Origin: a virus
Lineage: Duplodnaviria > Heunggongvirae > Uroviricota > Caudoviricetes
IMG/VR virus record: IMGVR_UViG_3300012943_000030
Span: 1-43,697 of that record
DNA: 43,697 nucleotides
Reading direction: 5' to 3' (one strand)
Shown in pieces: positions 4,980-27,858 of this stretch. Numbering within the stretch: position 1 is the first letter of the stretch; every line of letters starts with the position of its first letter. The translations under genes and the position numbers were made by a program. The notes under the pieces were generated by a model. That model did no database searches, was not told where the DNA came from, and saw only the letters and a list, made by a program, of their open reading frames with translations.

Positions 4980-5055
<76 letters not shown>

Positions 5056-5221: not shown

Positions 5222-5340
5222 CAAACCGGGATTGACGGTTATCCACAGATAAGTAGGTTCGAATCCTATCTAGTACGGTACGGCCGCTAGAGGCAACGCT
5301 GGTAAGTTGCAACTCGTTGGTCATTTTTGTTTGCCCTATT
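5217..5340 (+). ncRNA. tRNA-mimic ncRNA E3 (T-arm, acceptor-like stem, D-arm; YrlA-like)
   Basis: Closing stem AATAGCAAAC/GTTTG(CC)CTATT; motif AACCG-N7-CGGTTATC; T-arm GTAGG-TTCGAAT-CCTAT; CTAG/CTAG stem; D-like arm GCAAC-GCTGGTAA-GTTGC; TTTTTGTTTG. Confidence 0.65.
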
Positions 5341-5343
5341 CAT

Positions 5344-5419
5344 GGGCCTGTAGCTCAGCTGGGAGAGCGCCTGCTTTGCAAGCAGGATGTCGCAGGTTCG
5401 ATCCCTGTCAGGTCCACCA
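5344..5419 (+). tRNA. tRNA-Ala(UGC)
   Basis: Canonical, G3:U70, TT-TGC-AA, CCA. Confidence 0.95.
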
Positions 5420-5440
5420 ATTCCCACGTAAATACGACAT

Positions 5441-5517
5441 CGGAGTGTAGCTCAGCCTGGTAGAGCGCCTGCTTTGGGAGCAGGATGTCGCAGGTTCAAA
5501 TCCTGTCTCTCCGACCA
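5441..5517 (+). tRNA. tRNA-Pro(UGG)
   Basis: Canonical, TT-TGG-GA, CCA; GTAAATA 7 nt upstream. Confidence 0.95.
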
Positions 5518-5648
5518 ATTACGCTCACGTACCAAGTTGTACGAGGAGTACCTGGAGCCGTTATGCGGTTCCTGCCGTTTGCGCACCTACCATGTTGTAG
5601 AATGCGTTATGAGGGCGTCGCAAGGCGCCTTCAGCCTCACGAGACATC

Positions 5649-6338
5649 ATGAAGCCAATCGCGATCTATTCTCTTCCGAGAACATACAGCACGGTCATCT
5701 TGAGCGCGAGCCTTCGCCCTAACAAGATGAATGAGCCTCTCGCAGAGTGGAATATGTACGGCACCGACATGCCGACAATCCTCAATGCCTTCACGCTGTA
5801 TCCGCTCTATGCTGTTACACGCTATGGAGAATACTGGGAAAATCTGCAGGTGCAGCTTAATGCGCCAACGACCTCGCTAAAAACCTTCGGCCGCCACATC
5901 AGAAATTTCTGGCCAGCACGTGAGTGGTGGTCAAATCTCCAGCGAAACGACACCCACGACACGTTCGTCCTCTATCGTGATCTTCGCGAGATAATCACGT
6001 CTCATCTCGTCAGCACCCAGTTCGGGTTCAATAAGCACCTTGAAACAGAACTTCGCTACACTACACTTGACAGAAATCATATCAAGTGGGTGGTAGATGA
6101 GCTCGATGCGTTCATCACCTACTTCCCGGAGAATGCGACACTTATTTCTTTGGAAACGCTGCCAGCATCTCACTTCGATCTGAAGCAAAATCCATTGAAT
6201 GTCGAGAAGCAGAATTCTCTTGACAAGGTAAAGTACATCAAGAACATGGATTGGGTCAATGAGAACATTGACGCGATCATCAAGTTTTTTGAGCCTGGCT
6301 GGAACGCCAAGCTTAGGTCCTGCAAGCAGGGCGGTTGA
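5649..6338 (+). CDS. Sulfotransferase-fold-like protein (paralog 1)
   Basis: IAIYSLPRTYST resembles the 5'-PAPS loop and VLYRDLREIITS the 3'-phosphate motif. Confidence 0.5.
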   Translation: MKPIAIYSLPRTYSTVILSASLRPNKMNEPLAEWNMYGTDMPTILNAFTLYPLYAVTRYGEYWENLQVQLNAPTTSLKTFGRHIRNFWPAREWWSNLQRNDTHDTFVLYRDLREIITSHLVSTQFGFNKHLETELRYTTLDRNHIKWVVDELDAFITYFPENATLISLETLPASHFDLKQNPLNVEKQNSLDKVKYIKNMDWVNENIDAIIKFFEPGWNAKLRSCKQGG

Positions 6339-23167: not shown

Positions 23168-23689
23168 ATGAAGATCATCTTTCTAGACATCGACGGGGTG
23201 TTGAACTCCGAGCGCTCATTCATTGGCGGCGGACACCGCTCGAAGGATCCTCAGTACGAGGGCATGTCGTACCAGGAAAAGTTCGCGCGCTGCACAATCG
23301 ACCAAGTAGCATGCGATCTCGTCAATCGCCTGCTCACTGAGTTTGACGCGCAGATCGTCATCTCATCCTCTCACCGCCATCACTTCAAGGAAGGTCCTGA
23401 CAAGGTGAAGGAGCTGCAGGAGTACATGACGTCCTTGGGTATCAAGGGTGAGCGCGTTATTGGCTACACGCCAGAGCTGCGCGGTCCTCGCGGCCTTGAG
23501 ATCCATACGTGGCTCGATCATCATCCAGAGGTTGAAACCTACATCATCCTCGATGACAGCGTTGACATGCTTGAAGAGCAGCAGCCGTTCTTCATCAATA
23601 CCGACAGTGCTGTCGGTGTATCCGCTCAAGACTACCGCCGGGCCACCAAGCTCTTCGGAAAGGAAGACACCAGGCTGGTTCTTCTGTAG
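23168..23689 (+). CDS. HAD-family phosphatase (RNA-repair 'Swiss army knife' HAD-like)
   Basis: FLDIDGVLN, VISSSHR, RGLEI..WL, YIILDD. Confidence 0.82.
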   Translation: MKIIFLDIDGVLNSERSFIGGGHRSKDPQYEGMSYQEKFARCTIDQVACDLVNRLLTEFDAQIVISSSHRHHFKEGPDKVKELQEYMTSLGIKGERVIGYTPELRGPRGLEIHTWLDHHPEVETYIILDDSVDMLEEQQPFFINTDSAVGVSAQDYRRATKLFGKEDTRLVLL

Positions 23690-24545: not shown

Positions 24546-24745
24546 ACTCGAAGGCATACAGCGCGACGATCAAGCTCACTCCGGATGAAGTGAAGAACCT
24601 GATCATCGATGCCCTCGGACTGCCCGCCAGCACCAAGATCACGTTCAATGTGACGCAGGCTGGTGGTGACCGCCCGTTCGAAAGCTCATACCCATCATTC
24701 TCTGGTGCCCACGTAGAGGCACAGCACACCATAGCGCGCCCGTAG
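24542..24745 (+). CDS. Hypothetical protein ending at a TAG inside suppressor tRNA 1
   Basis: ATGA coupling; the stop is tRNA positions 8-10. Confidence 0.7.
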   Translation: MNSKAYSATIKLTPDEVKNLIIDALGLPASTKITFNVTQAGGDRPFESSYPSFSGAHVEAQHTIARP

Positions 24746-24809
24746 CTCAGCGGCCGAGCAGCGGTCTCTAAAACCGTGGACGTGGGTTCGATCCCCACCG
24801 GGCGCACCA
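24736..24809 (+). tRNA. Amber suppressor tRNA 1 (anticodon CUA, A73)
   Basis: GCGCCCG/CGGGCGC-A-CCA; GCGGT-CTCTAAA-ACCGT; T-arm GTGGG-TTCGATC-CCCAC. Confidence 0.92.
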
Positions 24810-24823
24810 ACTTGGAGAGTAAA

Positions 24824-25090
24824 TTGAAACTCGAAGACGTTCCAGTAGAAACTGCTAAGCTTCTTGAAGATGCGAAGCGCATCCGTGAGCGGCATGATGT
24901 CGAGGTCAAGGCCTTCTACGAGAAGCTCCAGAAGTTCATCAGCGACAACCCAGAGGTTCACGCCTACGGTGTCGAGTTCTCCATGTCGTATCAAACGACC
25001 AATGATCTAATCGAAATTGGCGAGCTTCTCGTGCAACCATACAATGGTGATTGGGTGTACTGGCTGCCTTCATCTTGGGAACGCTGCTGA
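24824..25090 (+). CDS. Hypothetical protein
   Basis: GGAGA RBS before a TTG start; the frame is also open through the tRNA. Confidence 0.72.
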   Translation: MKLEDVPVETAKLLEDAKRIRERHDVEVKAFYEKLQKFISDNPEVHAYGVEFSMSYQTTNDLIEIGELLVQPYNGDWVYWLPSSWERC

Positions 25091-25121
25091 TCGATTGGTT
25101 CGCGCTATCCAAGCGCCGTGC

Positions 25122-25128
25122 ATAAATA
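25122..25128 (+). promoter_or_regulatory. Late-type promoter directly upstream of suppressor tRNA 2
   Basis: ATAAATA 7 nt before the tRNA 5' end. Confidence 0.65.
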
Positions 25129-25135
25129 TCCTTTT

Positions 25136-25209
25136 GCTCTCATAGCTCAGCGTCAGAGCAGCGGTCTCTAAAACTGAAGACGTGGGTTAAACTCCCACTG
25201 AGGGCGCCA
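25136..25209 (+). tRNA. Amber suppressor tRNA 2 (anticodon CUA, G73, variant T-loop)
   Basis: GCTCTCA/TGAGGGC-G-CCA; GCGGT-CTCTAAA-ACTGA; T-loop TTAAACT. Confidence 0.85.
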
Positions 25210-25228
25210 ATTCAATCTAGGAGTGCAT

Positions 25229-25483
25229 ATGCGCTTTGTCTCTAAGGGGCAAGAACGAAGCGATGAATATCTTCTGATGAAAGCTGTTTGTGGAGAGATC
25301 AACACCCACATCGGGGAGCGCAATGTGCGCGTAAGCTCCCTCTCATACTCAAGCGTGCTACCACATTCTCTTGCGGAGCGCGTTGCCCACAAGTACCGCC
25401 GAGCAGGGTGGGAAGTTGCATGGAACATCTTTGAACTTCCATGTGGTGGTCAACGTACCACTTTCACCTTTGTCGCGCAGTAG
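25229..25483 (+). CDS. Hypothetical protein
   Basis: AGGAG RBS; 84 aa. Confidence 0.7.
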   Translation: MRFVSKGQERSDEYLLMKAVCGEINTHIGERNVRVSSLSYSSVLPHSLAERVAHKYRRAGWEVAWNIFELPCGGQRTTFTFVAQ

Positions 25484-25608
25484 AAAAACGACCATCTGGC
25501 GGCGCCAATAAATACGGACAATCAAGCTAACGCGACACACTAACAAGACAATCTGAGCTCATCCTATACGTGTGATACCACATATCACTCGAGCGTGAGG
25601 ATTTATGT

Positions 25609-26283
25609 ATGAAGCTCGTTTCAATGTTCGTTGCTGCCGCGGCAGCGCTGCTTCTCGGCGGCTCTACTGTCAAGGCTGATAGGATACAAATCGCCAACTA
25701 TGAAGGTGAATGGCTAAAACAGGTAGGTGCTCTCAAGACCACTGCTGAAGAGCAGAAGCTCACCATAGGCGTTGCAACCGCAGATGGTGGTGGAGAGGCA
25801 GGTAGCCCAGCAGCTTCCAGCTTTTACATTCACAAGACAACAGGCGCAAAGTTCTGCGTGATTACGATCACCGTGCGCAACAACCCACTTGCAGTTGTTC
25901 TATTTGAGAGGACACCGAAAGATCAAAGAGAGCTGGCGCTGAAGGCAATACTGATGCATGAGCTTGGGCACTGCGCCCAGTTCGTGCATGATACCGACCG
26001 CGTCATGAGCGTGACTGAGATGAGGAAGGAAGCATACGCTGATGTCTACTCAATCGCGCTGATGTCGAAGCTTTCTGACATAGAGTTTAGCAAGGTTCTT
26101 TCCTTCTTCATCTGGTTTAGGGTGAAGGTAGGCGAACCGCCAAAAGATCCAGTTCAGAAAAATTCCTATGATCGCTACGATACGCTCCCATACATTTTGA
26201 GGGCCATCGAGATTAGGGAGCTAGCAAAACAATACCCGCCAGAGAAAGTGGCGGCTTACATCGTATACGAAGAGAAACTATGA
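25609..26283 (+). CDS. Secreted zincin-like metallopeptidase
   Basis: Signal peptide; MHELGHC (HExxH) plus EAYAD; ATAAATA at 25508. Confidence 0.7.
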   Translation: MKLVSMFVAAAAALLLGGSTVKADRIQIANYEGEWLKQVGALKTTAEEQKLTIGVATADGGGEAGSPAASSFYIHKTTGAKFCVITITVRNNPLAVVLFERTPKDQRELALKAILMHELGHCAQFVHDTDRVMSVTEMRKEAYADVYSIALMSKLSDIEFSKVLSFFIWFRVKVGEPPKDPVQKNSYDRYDTLPYILRAIEIRELAKQYPPEKVAAYIVYEEKL

Positions 26284-26861
26284 CAGTCGCGCTAATTGGG
26301 GGTCGCTCAGGTCTCGGTGAAAAGATCGCCCAGCATTTTGACGGCTGCGCAGTGCTGAGCCGCCCTACCTATGACATCTCAACTGTTGAAGGTAGGGCGG
26401 CAATCTGCGATGAGGTAGATCGGCTTAGTTCCGACATTGTCGTTCTCAACTCGTTTGATCATAACCATCGTCGGTCCCAGTTTGATACGTTCGTGTCTCT
26501 CTGGGACCGTTTTTCTTCCAGGCCAATCACCATCGTGGTGATCTCCTCCTTCGCAAAGAACTATGCAGGCATCGATGTTGGAGATGCTGGCTTTCAGGCC
26601 TACTGTCTTGCCAAGAAGAGGCTTTCAGAACAAGCGCTACGATCTGCCTACAGCAGCTCAGCAGCCAAGGTGGTAGTCATCGAGCCGTGCGTGGTTGAGA
26701 ATAATGCAGGCAAGAACTTCGTTGATGGAACCTACATCACATACGATGAACTTCTAGACATGATCGATTGTGGTCTGGATCAAGTCAAGAACTGCAGAGC
26801 AACCTGTATTTCTAGGGTTGGCTTACATTCTGACGCTAGTTTACTTCAGGTCAGGACGTGA
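26280..26861 (+). CDS. Short-chain dehydrogenase/reductase-like protein
   Basis: LIGGRSGLG Rossmann motif; YCLAK (YxxxK). Confidence 0.68.
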   Translation: MTVALIGGRSGLGEKIAQHFDGCAVLSRPTYDISTVEGRAAICDEVDRLSSDIVVLNSFDHNHRRSQFDTFVSLWDRFSSRPITIVVISSFAKNYAGIDVGDAGFQAYCLAKKRLSEQALRSAYSSSAAKVVVIEPCVVENNAGKNFVDGTYITYDELLDMIDCGLDQVKNCRATCISRVGLHSDASLLQVRT

Positions 26862-26872
26862 TAGAATAAATA
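26839..26872 (+). promoter_or_regulatory. Overlapping sigma70-like and late-type promoters of the amber-gated operon
   Basis: GTTTAC-N17-TAGAAT (26839-26867) overlapping ATAAATA (26866-26872). Confidence 0.6.
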
Positions 26873-26923
26873 CCACACTTGATTGAAACATAGTTTTCCG
26901 ATTAACCAACCAGGAGATTGATC

Positions 26924-27256
26924 ATGAAGAAGTAGGTTGAAGACACGTACCTGTATGCCATCTCTCGCCGCGACATTCCGCTCGCGCAACAGGCAGTACA
27001 GGCAGCCCACGCCGCAATCGAGCACGCGTACCAATTTGGTCGCCCTGCCGATCATCACCCTTCGTACATTCATCTGACCATCCGCGACAAGCACCAGCTT
27101 GAGACGCTTCGTTCTGCCCTGAACGAGAAGGGAACCCAAACATCCGAATTCAGTGAGCCATACCAGGAATGGGGTCTCACCGCAATCGCCTGCCTCCTCA
27201 CCGAGGAACAGCGAAAGCTTCTTTCGGACCTACCACTTTGGAGGATCAAGTCATGA
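26924..27256 (+). CDS. Pth2-like (peptidyl-tRNA hydrolase II fold) protein with an in-frame TAG at codon 4
   Basis: AGGAG-N7-ATG AAG AAG TAG GTT...; read-through gives 110 aa: YLYAISRRDIPLAQQAVQAAHAAIE...FSEPY...LTAIA...LSDLPL, matching the Pth2 xxRxD...AxQxxHAA pattern; absent from the ORF track. Confidence 0.8.
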
Positions 27257-27858
27257 CGTAGGTACTTTCAAGCACACTCGAAGAGCTTCATGAGGCAATG
27301 GCTTCATGCGAGCAGGCCCCCGGCCTCAACATGCTTCAACACGGTCAAGCCGTGCACGAGCACTACAAGCAGCTCATTGCTGAGCTCGAGGCAGGAACAC
27401 ACGAGAGCAAGGAACTTCAGGCGCTATATGAGCAGCTGAAGCACAACCTTCCTCCACCTGAAACACTCAAACGCTACCACATCTACCATGATTGTGGCAA
27501 GCACCTCTGCCTTACCATTGGCCCTGATGGCAAGCGTCGCTTCCCTGGACATGCGGAAGCGTCAGCTCGGCAGTTCTCCAATATCTTCCCTGACGACGGC
27601 TTTACCAAGGCGCTCATCGCGCGAGACATGGACTTTCATTGTCTCCGCGGTGATGATCTGCTGCGCCTATGGAAAAGCCCTTTCGCGCCGATCCTCTACT
27701 TTACCGCCTGGGCGGAGATCAACGCGAACGCCGAAATGTTCGGTGGCCGGGGTTCTGAGAGCTACAAGATCAAGCGCTCTCGCCTTATTCAGGCTGGAAA
27801 GAAGTACAAAGGAGAAAGCCATGTGGTGGCCATTCAAGAAGAAACAGCAGACTGCTAA
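27253..27858 (+). CDS. HD-domain protein with an in-frame TAG at codon 3
   Basis: GGAGG-N9-ATG ACG TAG GTA..., ATGA-coupled to the Pth2-like stop and in frame with ORF 27298..27858; QHG...YHDCGK...PGHAEAS...DMDFH. Confidence 0.78.

What the first reader, a model, noticed from the sequence alone, without database searches (positions are those of the whole stretch)
24736..27858. Amber-gated operon: two CUA suppressor tRNAs control a Pth2-like gene and an HD-domain gene, each broken by TAG at codon 3-4
Seen: two paralogous tRNAs with anticodon CTA (24768-70, 25168-70). About 1.7 kb after the second, AGGAG-N7-ATG AAG AAG TAG GTT opens a 110-codon frame (26924-27256) that translates as a Pth2-fold protein. 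Its TGA overlaps the next start, GGAGG-N9-ATG ACG TAG GTA, which is in frame with the HD-domain ORF (27253-27858). Both amber codons sit near the start and are followed by GT. About 15 other genes in the window end normally at TAG, so the genome is not recoded. Established: CUA tRNAs read UAG, and Pth2 recycles peptidyl-tRNA. Inference: only these two translation-related genes depend on the phage suppressor, making a conditional switch (timing, competition with RF1, or sensing of tRNA integrity). Two independent sequencing errors or pseudogenisations in the same pattern are unlikely. Pth activity is not assured, because the N-terminal Lys is replaced by Gln and EPY stands where EPD would be expected.
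Basis: partly seen in the sequence, partly recalled or inferred. Interest (0 to 1): 0.95.

Follow-up and report, generated by a model that had tools for sequence, protein, structure and literature searches.

The report
Suppressor-tRNA-gated tRNA-end enzyme genes
A giant soil phage that otherwise uses the normal genetic code keeps a UAG stop two to three codons into two genes for enzymes that probably act on tRNA ends, and carries two UAG-reading tRNAs beside them, so these proteins are probably made only when the phage's own tRNAs override the stop; this gives the puzzling "orphan" suppressor tRNAs of jumbo phages a natural target.

Summary
Two tRNA-CUA genes (24736-24809, 25136-25209) lie 1.7 kb upstream of a Pth2-fold gene (SD-ATG-AAG-AAG-TAG, with no ATG/GTG/TTG anywhere downstream in frame) and an HD-motif gene (SD-ATG-ACG-TAG). 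Neither TAG is an error. The early stop recurs in about 50 distinct Pth2-like and about 35 HD-like loci from uncultured phages. It also recurs in cultured jumbo phages (GAP32, fHe-Yen9-04, ME3, Arash, RsoM2USA, XacN1, Xoo-sp13, RAS14, pT24). In the one complete relative whose two suppressors are UCA, both genes carry TGA instead of TAG. No other in-frame stops were found in this 108-kb contig or in two complete 340-360 kb relatives, so the code is standard and the gate is gene-specific. The two proteins are fused, in either order, in some phages. The HD-like one resembles the C-terminal half of CCA-adding enzymes. Most likely a dedicated suppressor/stop gate ties synthesis of two tRNA-3'-end enzymes to suppressor activity relative to release factor. 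The purpose is inferred, and nothing is experimental. I found no published description; the XacN1 paper states that targets of its suppressors could not be found. This scan has already reported the same design in at least 46 other genomes.

The parts
24736..24809 (+). suppressor tRNA 1, anticodon CUA (24768-70), A73, encoded CCA, canonical D and T loops
   Evidence: ARAGORN. Rfam tRNA 66 bits. Cloverleaf is the minimum-energy fold. 82% identical to the phage's own tRNA-Arg(CCG).
25136..25209 (+). suppressor tRNA 2, anticodon CUA (25168-70), G73, encoded CCA, unusual T loop TTAAACT with a D loop that offers U19 opposite A56
   Evidence: ARAGORN. Rfam tRNA 57.3 bits. 78% identical to tRNA 1. Paired suppressors recur in relatives.
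26840..26867 (+). promoter-like site (TTTACT-16-TG-TAGAAT) about 55 nt before the Pth2-like start; weak evidence
   Evidence: Consensus scan only.
26905..26916 (+). conserved C/A-rich leader motif (AACCAACC) running into the Shine-Dalgarno AGGAG
   Evidence: Sequence. The CAACC(A) motif recurs in front of the SD of this gene in many relatives and, in this combination with SD and start, occurs only once in this contig.
26924..26932 (+). start codon and two Lys codons (ATG AAG AAG) before gate 1
   Evidence: Relatives have a start plus 0-4 sense codons in 48 of 50 distinct contexts.
26933..26935 (+). gate 1: in-frame TAG, followed by G (TAG-GTT)
26936..27256 (+). body of the Pth2-fold protein (106 aa) plus TGA stop; no canonical start codon in this frame
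   Evidence: no start. Model pLDDT 87.7, and the top 15 PDB matches are all Pth2 family. 34 invariant columns in 12 relatives.
27240..27258 (+). SD GGAGG, 8-nt spacer, ATG ACG of the HD-like gene; its ATG overlaps the Pth2-like TGA (ATGA)
27259..27261 (+). gate 2: in-frame TAG, followed by G (TAG-GTA)
27262..27858 (+). body of the HD-motif protein (198 aa) plus TAA stop; the first helix (residues 6-15, invariant Leu9) lies before the first downstream ATG (27298)
   Evidence: Alignment invariants L9, M13, H27, H76, D77, H97, D122, H126. Model pLDDT 86, first ten residues 96. Best matches are the C-terminal halves of class-II tRNA nucleotidyltransferases.
23168..23689 (+). neighbouring gene: HAD phosphatase of the 'Swiss Army Knife' RNA-repair type (context only, not part of the gate)
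   Evidence: Pfam HAD_SAK_2, E = 5e-27, 95 bits against a cut-off of 27.5.

Best explanation
This is a gene-specific translational gate. Ribosomes start at a strong SD plus ATG and meet UAG after one or two sense codons. They go on into the Pth2-fold and HD-motif reading frames only if one of the phage's two tRNA-CUA delivers an amino acid before host RF1 ends translation. The rest of the genome uses the standard code, so the suppressors appear to exist mainly for this gate. Output of both proteins therefore follows the ratio of charged suppressor tRNA to release-factor activity. It is an AND gate, or feed-forward or feedback loop, built from a tRNA. Both products most likely act on the 3' end of tRNA. 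The Pth2 fold points to hydrolysis of the peptidyl- or aminoacyl-ester. The HD module is like the phosphohydrolase and tRNA-binding half of CCA-adding enzymes. Both probably work together in tRNA recycling or repair. Shown here: the anatomy, its conservation, the match between stop codon and anticodon, the standard code elsewhere, the folds, and the gene fusions. Inferred: that the tRNAs are charged, that read-through happens, the enzymatic activities, and the purpose of the gate. My preferred purpose is to couple the amount of two potentially harmful tRNA-end enzymes to the state of the phage tRNA pool and of termination.
For: (1) Anatomy. There is a strong SD and ATG, then TAG, and no canonical start in the 106-codon Pth2-like frame. 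The first strand of the fold (residues 4-11) and, in the HD-like protein, the first helix with invariant Leu9 lie between the stop and any later start. (2) Conservation. The early stop is present in 49 distinct Pth2-like contexts and about 31 of 43 distinct HD-like loci. It is also present in cultured phages infecting Enterobacteria, Acinetobacter, Xanthomonas, Ralstonia, Stenotrophomonas and Tenacibaculum. (3) Matching stop and anticodon. There are 32 TAG gates with a CUA tRNA in the same locus, one TGA gate with UCA, and no mismatches. The complete genome G002 has exactly two suppressors, both UCA, and TGA in both genes. G001 has exactly two, both CUA, and TAG in both. (4) The stop moves. 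In some HD-like genes the TAG sits at codon 24, 52 or 112, or in a surface loop in the Rak2-like phages, rather than at the start. This points to selection for having a stop, not for a particular residue. (5) Context. The base after the stop is a purine in 49 of 49 Pth2 gates and 14 of 15 HD gates, against about 55% at ordinary TAG gene ends. From established knowledge (Bossi 1983; Miller and Albertini 1983), a 3' purine favours suppression. The anticodon loop CUCUAAA is nearly invariant in otherwise diverged suppressors. (6) Standard code elsewhere. Six-frame coding-potential scans of this contig and two complete relatives found only same-frame neighbouring genes. (7) No conserved RNA structure lies at the gate, and the SD is 19 nt from the codon after the stop. 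(8) Functional link between the two proteins. They are fused as HD-Pth2 in XacN1, Xoo-sp13 and RAS14 and as Pth2-HD in pT24, each time behind one early TAG. More distant Pth2-like genes have a tRNA-CUA 20-60 nt downstream. (9) Folds.
Against: Nothing is experimental. Whether the tRNAs are expressed or charged, and with which amino acid, is unknown. Suppressors should also read ordinary stops. TAG ends 10-13% of genes here, and in the UCA-type relative TGA ends 141 of 272 long genes, with no excess of back-up stops. Suppression must therefore be weak or context-bound, or costly. Only one TGA/UCA lineage with its context was found, so the covariation rests on one evolutionary event, though it involves four coordinated changes. 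Eight of 43 HD-like lineages and one Pth2-like lineage are ungated. The codon after the stop is often AUU, AUC or GUU, which are near-cognate start codons. By motif comparison, the usual Pth2 catalytic Lys is Gln here, and the Asp is Tyr in this clade.
Confidence: 0.8

Rival explanations
1. The leader is a mini-ORF followed by re-initiation. The 1-4 codon ORF ends at the stop, and the same ribosome restarts at the next codon without any suppressor. The nearby suppressor tRNAs would then serve another purpose.
For: The codon after the stop is AUU, AUC or AUA in 28 of 50 Pth2 contexts and GUN in 11. AUU-type codons can initiate at low level (established knowledge, infC). There is always a strong SD upstream.
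Against: The stop codon matches the anticodon of the neighbouring tRNAs, and it switches to TGA together with UCA in both genes of G002. Re-initiation does not predict this. AAC, ACA, ACC and AAT follow the stop in more than 10 contexts. Internal TAGs in HD-like genes have no SD nearby. The SD is 19 nt from the codon after the stop in the window.
Confidence: 0.08
2. The TAGs are part of a genome-wide code change (TAG as a sense codon, as in code-15 phages), and the recoded late genes lie outside this partial contig.
For: The contig is only about 29% of a genome by CheckV. Recoded phages do carry suppressor tRNAs (bioRxiv 10.1101/2021.08.26.457843).
Against: Two complete relatives (358 and 343 kb) with the same gates show no other in-frame TAG or TGA read-through candidates, and both use all three stops at ordinary gene ends. 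Crude ORFs in code 11 already cover 90% of this contig. GC is 53-57%, unlike the low-GC recoded lineages.
Confidence: 0.03
3. The stop directs insertion of a special residue (pyrrolysine or selenocysteine type) that both enzymes need.
For: ARAGORN labels CUA tRNAs 'Pyl' and UCA tRNAs 'SeC' by default.
Against: The tRNAs are ordinary 74-78 nt cloverleaves. They lack the long variable arm of tRNA-Sec and the shortened loops of tRNA-Pyl. No conserved downstream RNA element was found. The stop sits in variable N-terminal or loop positions and moves between lineages, and ungated homologues exist.
Confidence: 0.02
4. The genes are decaying pseudogenes, or the TAGs are assembly errors.
For: None beyond the presence of stops.
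Against: The same design occurs in dozens of independent assemblies and in finished genomes of cultured phages. Amino-acid conservation downstream is strong: 34 and 36 invariant columns. A second assembly is identical.
Confidence: 0.01

Closest known systems
Stop-codon recoding in alternatively coded phages with phage-encoded suppressor tRNAs (crAss-like, Lak, Agate; Borges et al., bioRxiv 10.1101/2021.08.26.457843; Peters et al. PMC9523058)
   Same: A phage-encoded suppressor tRNA reads a stop codon inside phage genes in a host that uses the standard code. The proposed role is regulatory: genes stay silent until the tRNA acts.
   Different: In those phages tens to hundreds of genes, mainly late and lysis genes, carry many in-frame stops, the reassigned stop is avoided at gene ends, and GC is low. 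Here only two genes are affected, with one stop each, usually at codon 2-5. The genome otherwise keeps TAG (or, in the UCA-type relative, TGA as its commonest stop) as a terminator. The gated genes encode tRNA-end enzymes next to the tRNAs.
prfB (RF2) autoregulation through an early in-frame UGA
   Same: An early in-frame stop in a translation-related gene makes synthesis depend on how efficiently that stop is recognised by a release factor. The stop sits behind an SD-like element.
   Different: prfB escapes by a +1 frameshift, and its product is the factor that reads the stop. Here the frame is unchanged, escape is by a dedicated tRNA, and it is unknown whether the products act back on UAG decoding.
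Synthetic suppressor-tRNA AND gates and feed-forward loops (for example PMC7969014)
   Same: A suppressor tRNA gene is paired with a target gene carrying early amber codons. This gives tight, leak-free, two-input control.
   Different: Those circuits are engineered. This one is natural, conserved across phages of several bacterial phyla, and uses two paralogous tRNAs.
PTH2 genes of jumbo phages (Iyer et al. 2021, PMC7824862; RaK2 ORF188, PMC3622015)
   Same: It is the same protein family, noted across jumbo phages and proposed to release peptidyl-tRNA during ribosome rescue after tRNA damage.
   Different: Those papers do not mention the early stop or any link to suppressor tRNAs. In several GenBank records the gene is unannotated or truncated because of the stop.
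Lambda bar minigenes and Pth
   Same: A strong SD, a start codon, one or two codons and a stop. From established knowledge, such minigenes promote peptidyl-tRNA drop-off and are harmful when Pth is limiting.
   Different: bar minigenes are not followed in frame by a protein-coding sequence, and no suppressor is involved. A link between drop-off at this leader and the Pth2-like product is speculation.

Membership tests
Pth2 peptidyl-tRNA hydrolase (PF01981) | Pth2 alpha/beta fold | tested here: met
   AlphaFold model has pLDDT 87.7. The top 15 PDB matches are all Pth2 family (3erj, 1wn2, 1q7s, 1rlk, 2zv3, 1xty), TM 0.6-0.76.
Pth2 peptidyl-tRNA hydrolase (PF01981) | Sequence match above Pfam's gathering score | tested here: not met
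   12.5-12.7 bits against a cut-off of 23 for the window's protein. All 12 relatives match weakly, best E = 3.4e-4.
Pth2 peptidyl-tRNA hydrolase (PF01981) | Catalytic Lys and Asp (K18 and D86 of the Sulfolobus enzyme; recalled from the literature) | tested here: inconclusive
   By motif comparison only. The Lys position is an invariant Gln-Gln. The Asp of 'EPD' is Tyr in this clade and Asp in the Rak2-like, ME3 and XacN1-like clades. No residue-level structural alignment was available.
Pth2 peptidyl-tRNA hydrolase (PF01981) | Hydrolysis of the peptidyl-tRNA ester | not testable with these tools
   Needs an enzyme assay.
HD phosphohydrolase superfamily (PF01966) | H...HD...H...D metal-binding motif | tested here: met
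   H27, H76-D77 (as HDCGK), H97, D122 and H126 are invariant in 10 relatives.
HD phosphohydrolase superfamily (PF01966) | Sequence match above Pfam's gathering score | tested here: not met
   No Pfam hit for the window's protein. HD matches 3 of 10 relatives at best E = 7.7e-4.
Class-II tRNA nucleotidyltransferase (CCA-, CC- or A-adding enzyme) | C-terminal body and HD-region fold | tested here: met
   Profile against PDB sequences 3wfp and 3wfo, E = 7e-5. Foldseek on 3wfo-3wfs, probability 1.0, TMq 0.6. AlphaFold DB entries O67911, Q72K91 and Q9RV39, TMq 0.54-0.64.
Class-II tRNA nucleotidyltransferase (CCA-, CC- or A-adding enzyme) | N-terminal Pol-beta nucleotidyltransferase head (PF01743) | tested here: not met
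   The protein has 198 aa and covers the C-terminal half only. PF01743 is absent from this contig and present once, elsewhere, in each complete relative. It is therefore not a CCA-adding enzyme.
Nonsense-suppressor tRNA | Complete tRNA with an anticodon complementary to a stop codon | tested here: met
   The anticodon loop CUCUAAA is conserved among relatives.
Nonsense-suppressor tRNA | Is aminoacylated and reads the stop in vivo | not testable with these tools
   Only indirect support from the stop/anticodon match.
tRNA-Pyl or tRNA-Sec systems | Atypical tRNA architecture (Sec: long variable arm, 8/5 or 9/4 stems; Pyl: short D loop, 3-nt variable loop) and, for Sec, a SECIS element | tested here: not met
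   The tRNAs are standard cloverleaves of 74-78 nt. No conserved downstream structure was found.
Genome-wide stop-codon reassignment (codes 15 or 4) | Many genes with in-frame reassigned stops; low coding density in code 11; the stop avoided at gene ends | tested here: not met
   Only these genes are affected, plus the separately reported UGA in the release-factor-like gene.
prfB-type autoregulation | The downstream frame is shifted relative to the start | tested here: not met
   Start, stop and body are in one frame.

The most novel reading that the evidence does not exclude
The pair of suppressor tRNAs and the two gated enzymes form a closed-loop sensor of tRNA 3'-end state. The Pth2-like and HD-like proteins would act on the suppressor tRNAs themselves, or on the whole tRNA pool, for example by removing peptidyl, N-acyl-aminoacyl, pyrophosphate or cyclic-phosphate groups left by host tRNA-targeting defences or by drop-off. 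Their own synthesis would report how much charged suppressor there is relative to release factor. That would make a tRNA-based homeostat or counter-defence circuit, possibly wired together with the UGA-gated release-factor-like gene of the same phage.
Probability: 0.2. Interest if true: 0.9.

Novelty: new variant of a known kind. Interest (0 to 1): 0.8.

Why it matters
Many jumbo phages that use the standard code carry one or two suppressor tRNAs whose purpose is unknown. The XacN1 paper says outright that no target genes could be identified, because the authors looked past annotated stops rather than in front of annotated starts (PMC5852040). The RsoM2USA and Atu_ph07 papers only guess at targets. 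This finding names specific, conserved targets. It shows a natural translational gate built from a tRNA and a stop codon and acting on single genes, the design that synthetic biologists built independently. It also exposes systematic annotation errors: the Pth2-like gene is missing or truncated, and the HD-like gene is split in two, in GenBank records of fHe-Yen9-04, GAP32, Serratia phage BF, Erwinia phages, Arash, XacN1 and pT24. The design exists in cultured phages of Salmonella, Cronobacter, Yersinia, Acinetobacter, Xanthomonas and Ralstonia, so it can be tested directly. It may also show how gene-by-gene use of a suppressor could precede full code change in phages.

Tried and rejected
(1) DNA-level search of deposited phages with the 3.2-kb region matched only the tRNAs. 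Protein searches were needed.

(2) A tblastn screen of every single-stop 101-codon window between the three genomes was too noisy, because non-coding frames of conserved genes align too. I replaced it with a six-frame coding-potential scan.

(3) A crude test for TAG recoding in the distant metagenome loci, using ORF coverage and long ORFs with TAG inside, was inconclusive.

(4) Agrobacterium phage Atu_ph07, which has a UCA suppressor, has no homologue of either protein at E <= 0.01. It gives no second TGA/UCA test.

(5) The metagenome records behind the TAA-type (L128) and second TGA-type (L163) gates are not held for searching. Their suppressors could not be sought.

(6) Complex prediction of the HD-like with the Pth2-like protein gave no verdict (score 0.01). 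This is not evidence either way.

(7) The look-up of sequencing runs listed no RNA holder. It listed only one soil DNA run, probably the source sample, so there are no expression data.

(8) The identity of the inserted amino acid could not be inferred. tRNA 1 is closest to the phage's tRNA-Arg(CCG). Gate positions align to variable residues: Lys in L009 against TAG in L006, Val in Arash and ME3 against TAG in the Rak2-like phages.

(9) No excess of back-up stops was seen after ordinary TAG or TGA gene ends.

(10) Frameshifting was rejected because everything is in one frame. A read-through-stimulating RNA structure was rejected.

Full report
**What is there.** The window is the first 43.7 kb of a 107,697-bp viral contig (GC 53%; CheckV completeness 29%). 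It is a fragment of a jumbo phage of about 350 kb. The closest complete relative, G001, has 358,444 bp with terminal repeats.

The contig carries 47 tRNA genes. Only two read a stop codon: tRNA-CUA at 24736-24809 and at 25136-25209. Both are well above Rfam's tRNA threshold (66 and 57 bits) and fold as cloverleaves.

A strong Shine-Dalgarno lies 1.7 kb downstream. AGGAG (26912-16) precedes ATG AAG AAG TAG GTT. The frame then runs 106 codons to TGA without a single ATG, GTG or TTG. That TGA overlaps the next start: GGAGG, 8 nt, ATG ACG TAG GTA. This opens a 198-codon frame ending at 27858.

**The stops are deliberate.** I collected relatives from IMG/VR, JGI metagenomes and GenBank phages.

- For the Pth2-like gene, 49 distinct sequence contexts show a start codon, 0-4 sense codons (rarely up to 7), an in-frame stop and then the conserved K-x-Y-L-Y-x-I-S-R-R-D-I-P strand.
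- For the HD-like gene, about 31 of 43 distinct IMG/VR loci have an early TAG. Three have one internal TAG instead (codon 24, 52 or 112), eight have none, and one has TGA.
- The residues between the stop and the next possible start are conserved as protein. They include invariant Leu9 and Met13 in the HD-like family, and L6, Y7, R11 and D13 in the Pth2-like family.
- Those residues also form confident structural elements: the first strand and the first helix. Translation must therefore cross the stop.
- An independent assembly of one soil run is identical here.

**Stop codon and anticodon match.**

- In almost every locus long enough to tell, one or two tRNA-CUA genes lie within a few kb.
- Among distinct Pth2 gate contexts there are 32 TAG gates with CUA, one TGA gate with UCA and no mismatch.
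- I fetched two complete relatives. G001 has 56 tRNAs and exactly two suppressors, both CUA, and TAG in both genes. G002 (342,591 bp) has 40 tRNAs and exactly two suppressors, both UCA. Its Pth2-like gene reads ATG GAA TCG TGA GTC, and its HD-like gene reads ATG plus three codons, then TGA GTC.
- That makes four coordinated changes in one lineage. It is hard to explain unless these tRNAs read these stops.
- One tRNA-CUA in L086 was missed by ARAGORN because of an odd T loop, so 'none in locus' undercounts.

**The code is otherwise standard.**

- Crude ORFs in code 11 already cover 90% of the contig.
- A scan asked for one frame to be the best of six on both sides of a stop. It found only neighbouring genes that happen to share a frame, in this contig and in both complete relatives.
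- A scan for SD, start, up to 8-11 codons, a stop and then a coding frame found only the two gates here.
- TAG ends 9 of 94 long genes here and 35 of 269 in G001. In G002, whose suppressors read UGA, TGA ends 141 of 272. Suppression cannot be general or highly efficient at ordinary gene ends.
- The base after the stop is a purine at 49 of 49 Pth2 gates and 14 of 15 HD gates, against about 55% at ordinary TAG ends. From established genetics, a 3' purine favours suppression.
- A stop after only 1-4 codons also gives release factors a very short nascent chain. From the minigene literature such termination is slow. This last point is inference.
- No conserved RNA structure surrounds the gate.

**What the proteins are.**

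- The 106-residue protein models with pLDDT 87.7. Its top 15 PDB matches are all Pth2 peptidyl-tRNA hydrolases. The Pfam PTH2 match is weak in all 12 relatives and below threshold. By motif comparison, the usual catalytic Lys is Gln, and the Asp is Tyr in this clade but Asp in others. Fold membership is therefore shown, and activity is not.
- The 198-residue protein has an invariant H...HDxGK...H...D...H pattern. It matches the C-terminal half of class-II tRNA nucleotidyltransferases best, both by profile (E = 7e-5) and by fold (TMq 0.54-0.64). It lacks the nucleotidyltransferase head, which the complete relatives encode elsewhere. In the E. coli CCA enzyme this region carries phosphatase and 2',3'-cyclic phosphodiesterase activity (established knowledge).
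- The two proteins are fused as HD-Pth2 in XacN1, Xoo-sp13 and RAS14, and as Pth2-HD in Tenacibaculum phage pT24. Each fusion sits behind a single early TAG. This argues that they work on one substrate, most simply the 3' end of tRNA.
- An RNA-repair-type HAD phosphatase lies 1 kb upstream of the tRNAs.
- Relatives often have a phage tmRNA next to the suppressors.
- In more distant Pth2-like genes that start normally, a tRNA-CUA follows within 20-60 nt. The link between this enzyme family and suppressor tRNAs is therefore older than the gate.

**How it most likely works.** The two genes are translated only when a charged phage suppressor beats the release factor at the early stop. Their output is set by the ratio of suppressor activity to RF1 activity (RF2 in the UGA type). 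This is an AND gate with the phage's own tRNA expression.

I favour a coupling role. Enzymes that cut or trim tRNA 3' ends would be harmful if over-made. Here they would be produced in proportion to the working tRNA pool, or in response to weak termination. The sign of any feedback cannot be read from sequence. In this contig the ATGA overlap adds translational coupling of the HD-like gene to the Pth2-like gene. In G001 and G002 the two genes are 0.6-1.3 kb apart.

**Rivals.**

- Re-initiation after a mini-ORF gets some support from the frequent AUU, AUC or GUU after the stop. It does not explain the anticodon match, the AAC, ACA or ACC cases, or the internal TAGs.
- Genome-wide recoding, special amino acids, pseudogenes and sequencing errors are each contradicted by the data above.

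**What is known.**

- Phage suppressor tRNAs are known from recoded phages, where many late genes carry stops.
- PTH2 in jumbo phages has been noted, without the stop or the tRNA link.
- The XacN1 paper reports that targets of its two CUA suppressors could not be found. Its ORF364 is in fact the gated HD-Pth2 fusion, annotated from a later ATG.
- My full-text searches found no description of this design.
- Within this scan, the same design has been reported before in at least 46 other genomes. A UGA-interrupted release-factor-like gene has been reported in this same genome. I confirmed that this UGA is kept in G001 and also in the UCA-type G002.

**Verdict.** This is a real, conserved feature, not yet described in the literature I could search. 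I class it as a new variant of suppressor-tRNA-based control in phages. The gate itself is well supported by comparative evidence. Its purpose, the inserted residue and the enzyme activities need experiments, which are feasible in cultured phages.

Noticed in passing
window 23168-23689 (+): This gene encodes a HAD phosphatase of the 'Swiss Army Knife' RNA-repair type (Pfam HAD_SAK_2, E = 5e-27), 1 kb upstream of the suppressor tRNAs. It adds to the RNA-repair flavour of the neighbourhood.
   Followed up: partly
window 25136-25209; L086:4744-4815: The second suppressor has an unusual T loop (TTAAACT) and a D loop with U where G19 is expected, which would keep the 19:56 elbow pair as U:A. A related tRNA-CUA in L086 has T loop GTAGGCA and was missed by ARAGORN but found by Rfam's tRNA model. 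One class of these suppressors seems to have an altered elbow.
   Followed up: partly
window 26905-26912 and the same place in L075-L101: A C/A-rich motif (CAACCA or AACCAACC) directly upstream of the Shine-Dalgarno of the Pth2-like gene is conserved across relatives that are only 60-85% identical in protein. Followed by SD and start, it occurs once in this contig.
   Followed up: partly
L135, L136, L138, L145, L147, L148, L154, L161, L165, L173-L176: Distant Pth2-like genes (29-37% identity) start with a normal ATG, have no HD-like neighbour, and are followed within about 20-60 nt by a tRNA-CUA gene.
   Followed up: partly
L128:~4985-5000; L163:~1210-1228: Two further gate types exist. L128 reads SD-ATG-4 codons-TAA-GTA before a Pth2-like frame, and no tRNA-UUA lies in the 9.7 kb held. 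L163 reads ATG TTG TGA ATT on a 1.9-kb contig. Their suppressors could not be looked for.
   Followed up: partly
L091:4962-5400 and 5290-6300 (also L090, L092, L198): In one lineage the Pth2-like gene starts normally (MKNYLYAISRKD) and has lost the DHH motif. Its HD-like gene there has a 13-codon leader before a TAG, and two tRNA-CUA genes plus a tmRNA lie upstream.
   Followed up: partly
L095:4845-5300: A Pth2-like C-terminal part (lacking the first strand) follows an upstream ORF in frame across a TAG. This may be a read-through fusion or a rearranged copy.
   Followed up: no
G000 C1 ~51589-52264 (TGA at 51694); G001 ~303165; G002 286692: The in-frame TGA of the release-factor-like gene (earlier finding e1-1839109) is kept at the same codon in all three genomes. 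That includes G002, whose two suppressors read UGA, so there it could be read by them.
   Followed up: partly
L066 (Yersinia phage fHe-Yen9-04), L071 (GAP32), L069 (Arash), L067 (XacN1), L073 (pT24): GenBank annotation errors follow from the gates. The Pth2-like gene is unannotated (fHe-Yen9-04, also BF and the pEa_SNUABM phages) or truncated to 50 aa (Arash). The HD-like gene is split into two CDS at an internal TAG (g408/g409; GAP32_398/399). The fusions are annotated from a later ATG.
   Followed up: yes
window 25609-26283 (+): Between the tRNAs and the gated genes lies a 224-aa protein with an N-terminal signal-like hydrophobic stretch and an HELGH zinc-protease-like motif. It has no Pfam match.
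   Followed up: no
G002 (L030-L047), whole genome: G002 encodes two UGA-reading tRNAs although TGA is its commonest stop codon (141 of 272 genes of 150 aa or more). There is no excess of nearby back-up stops.
   Followed up: partly
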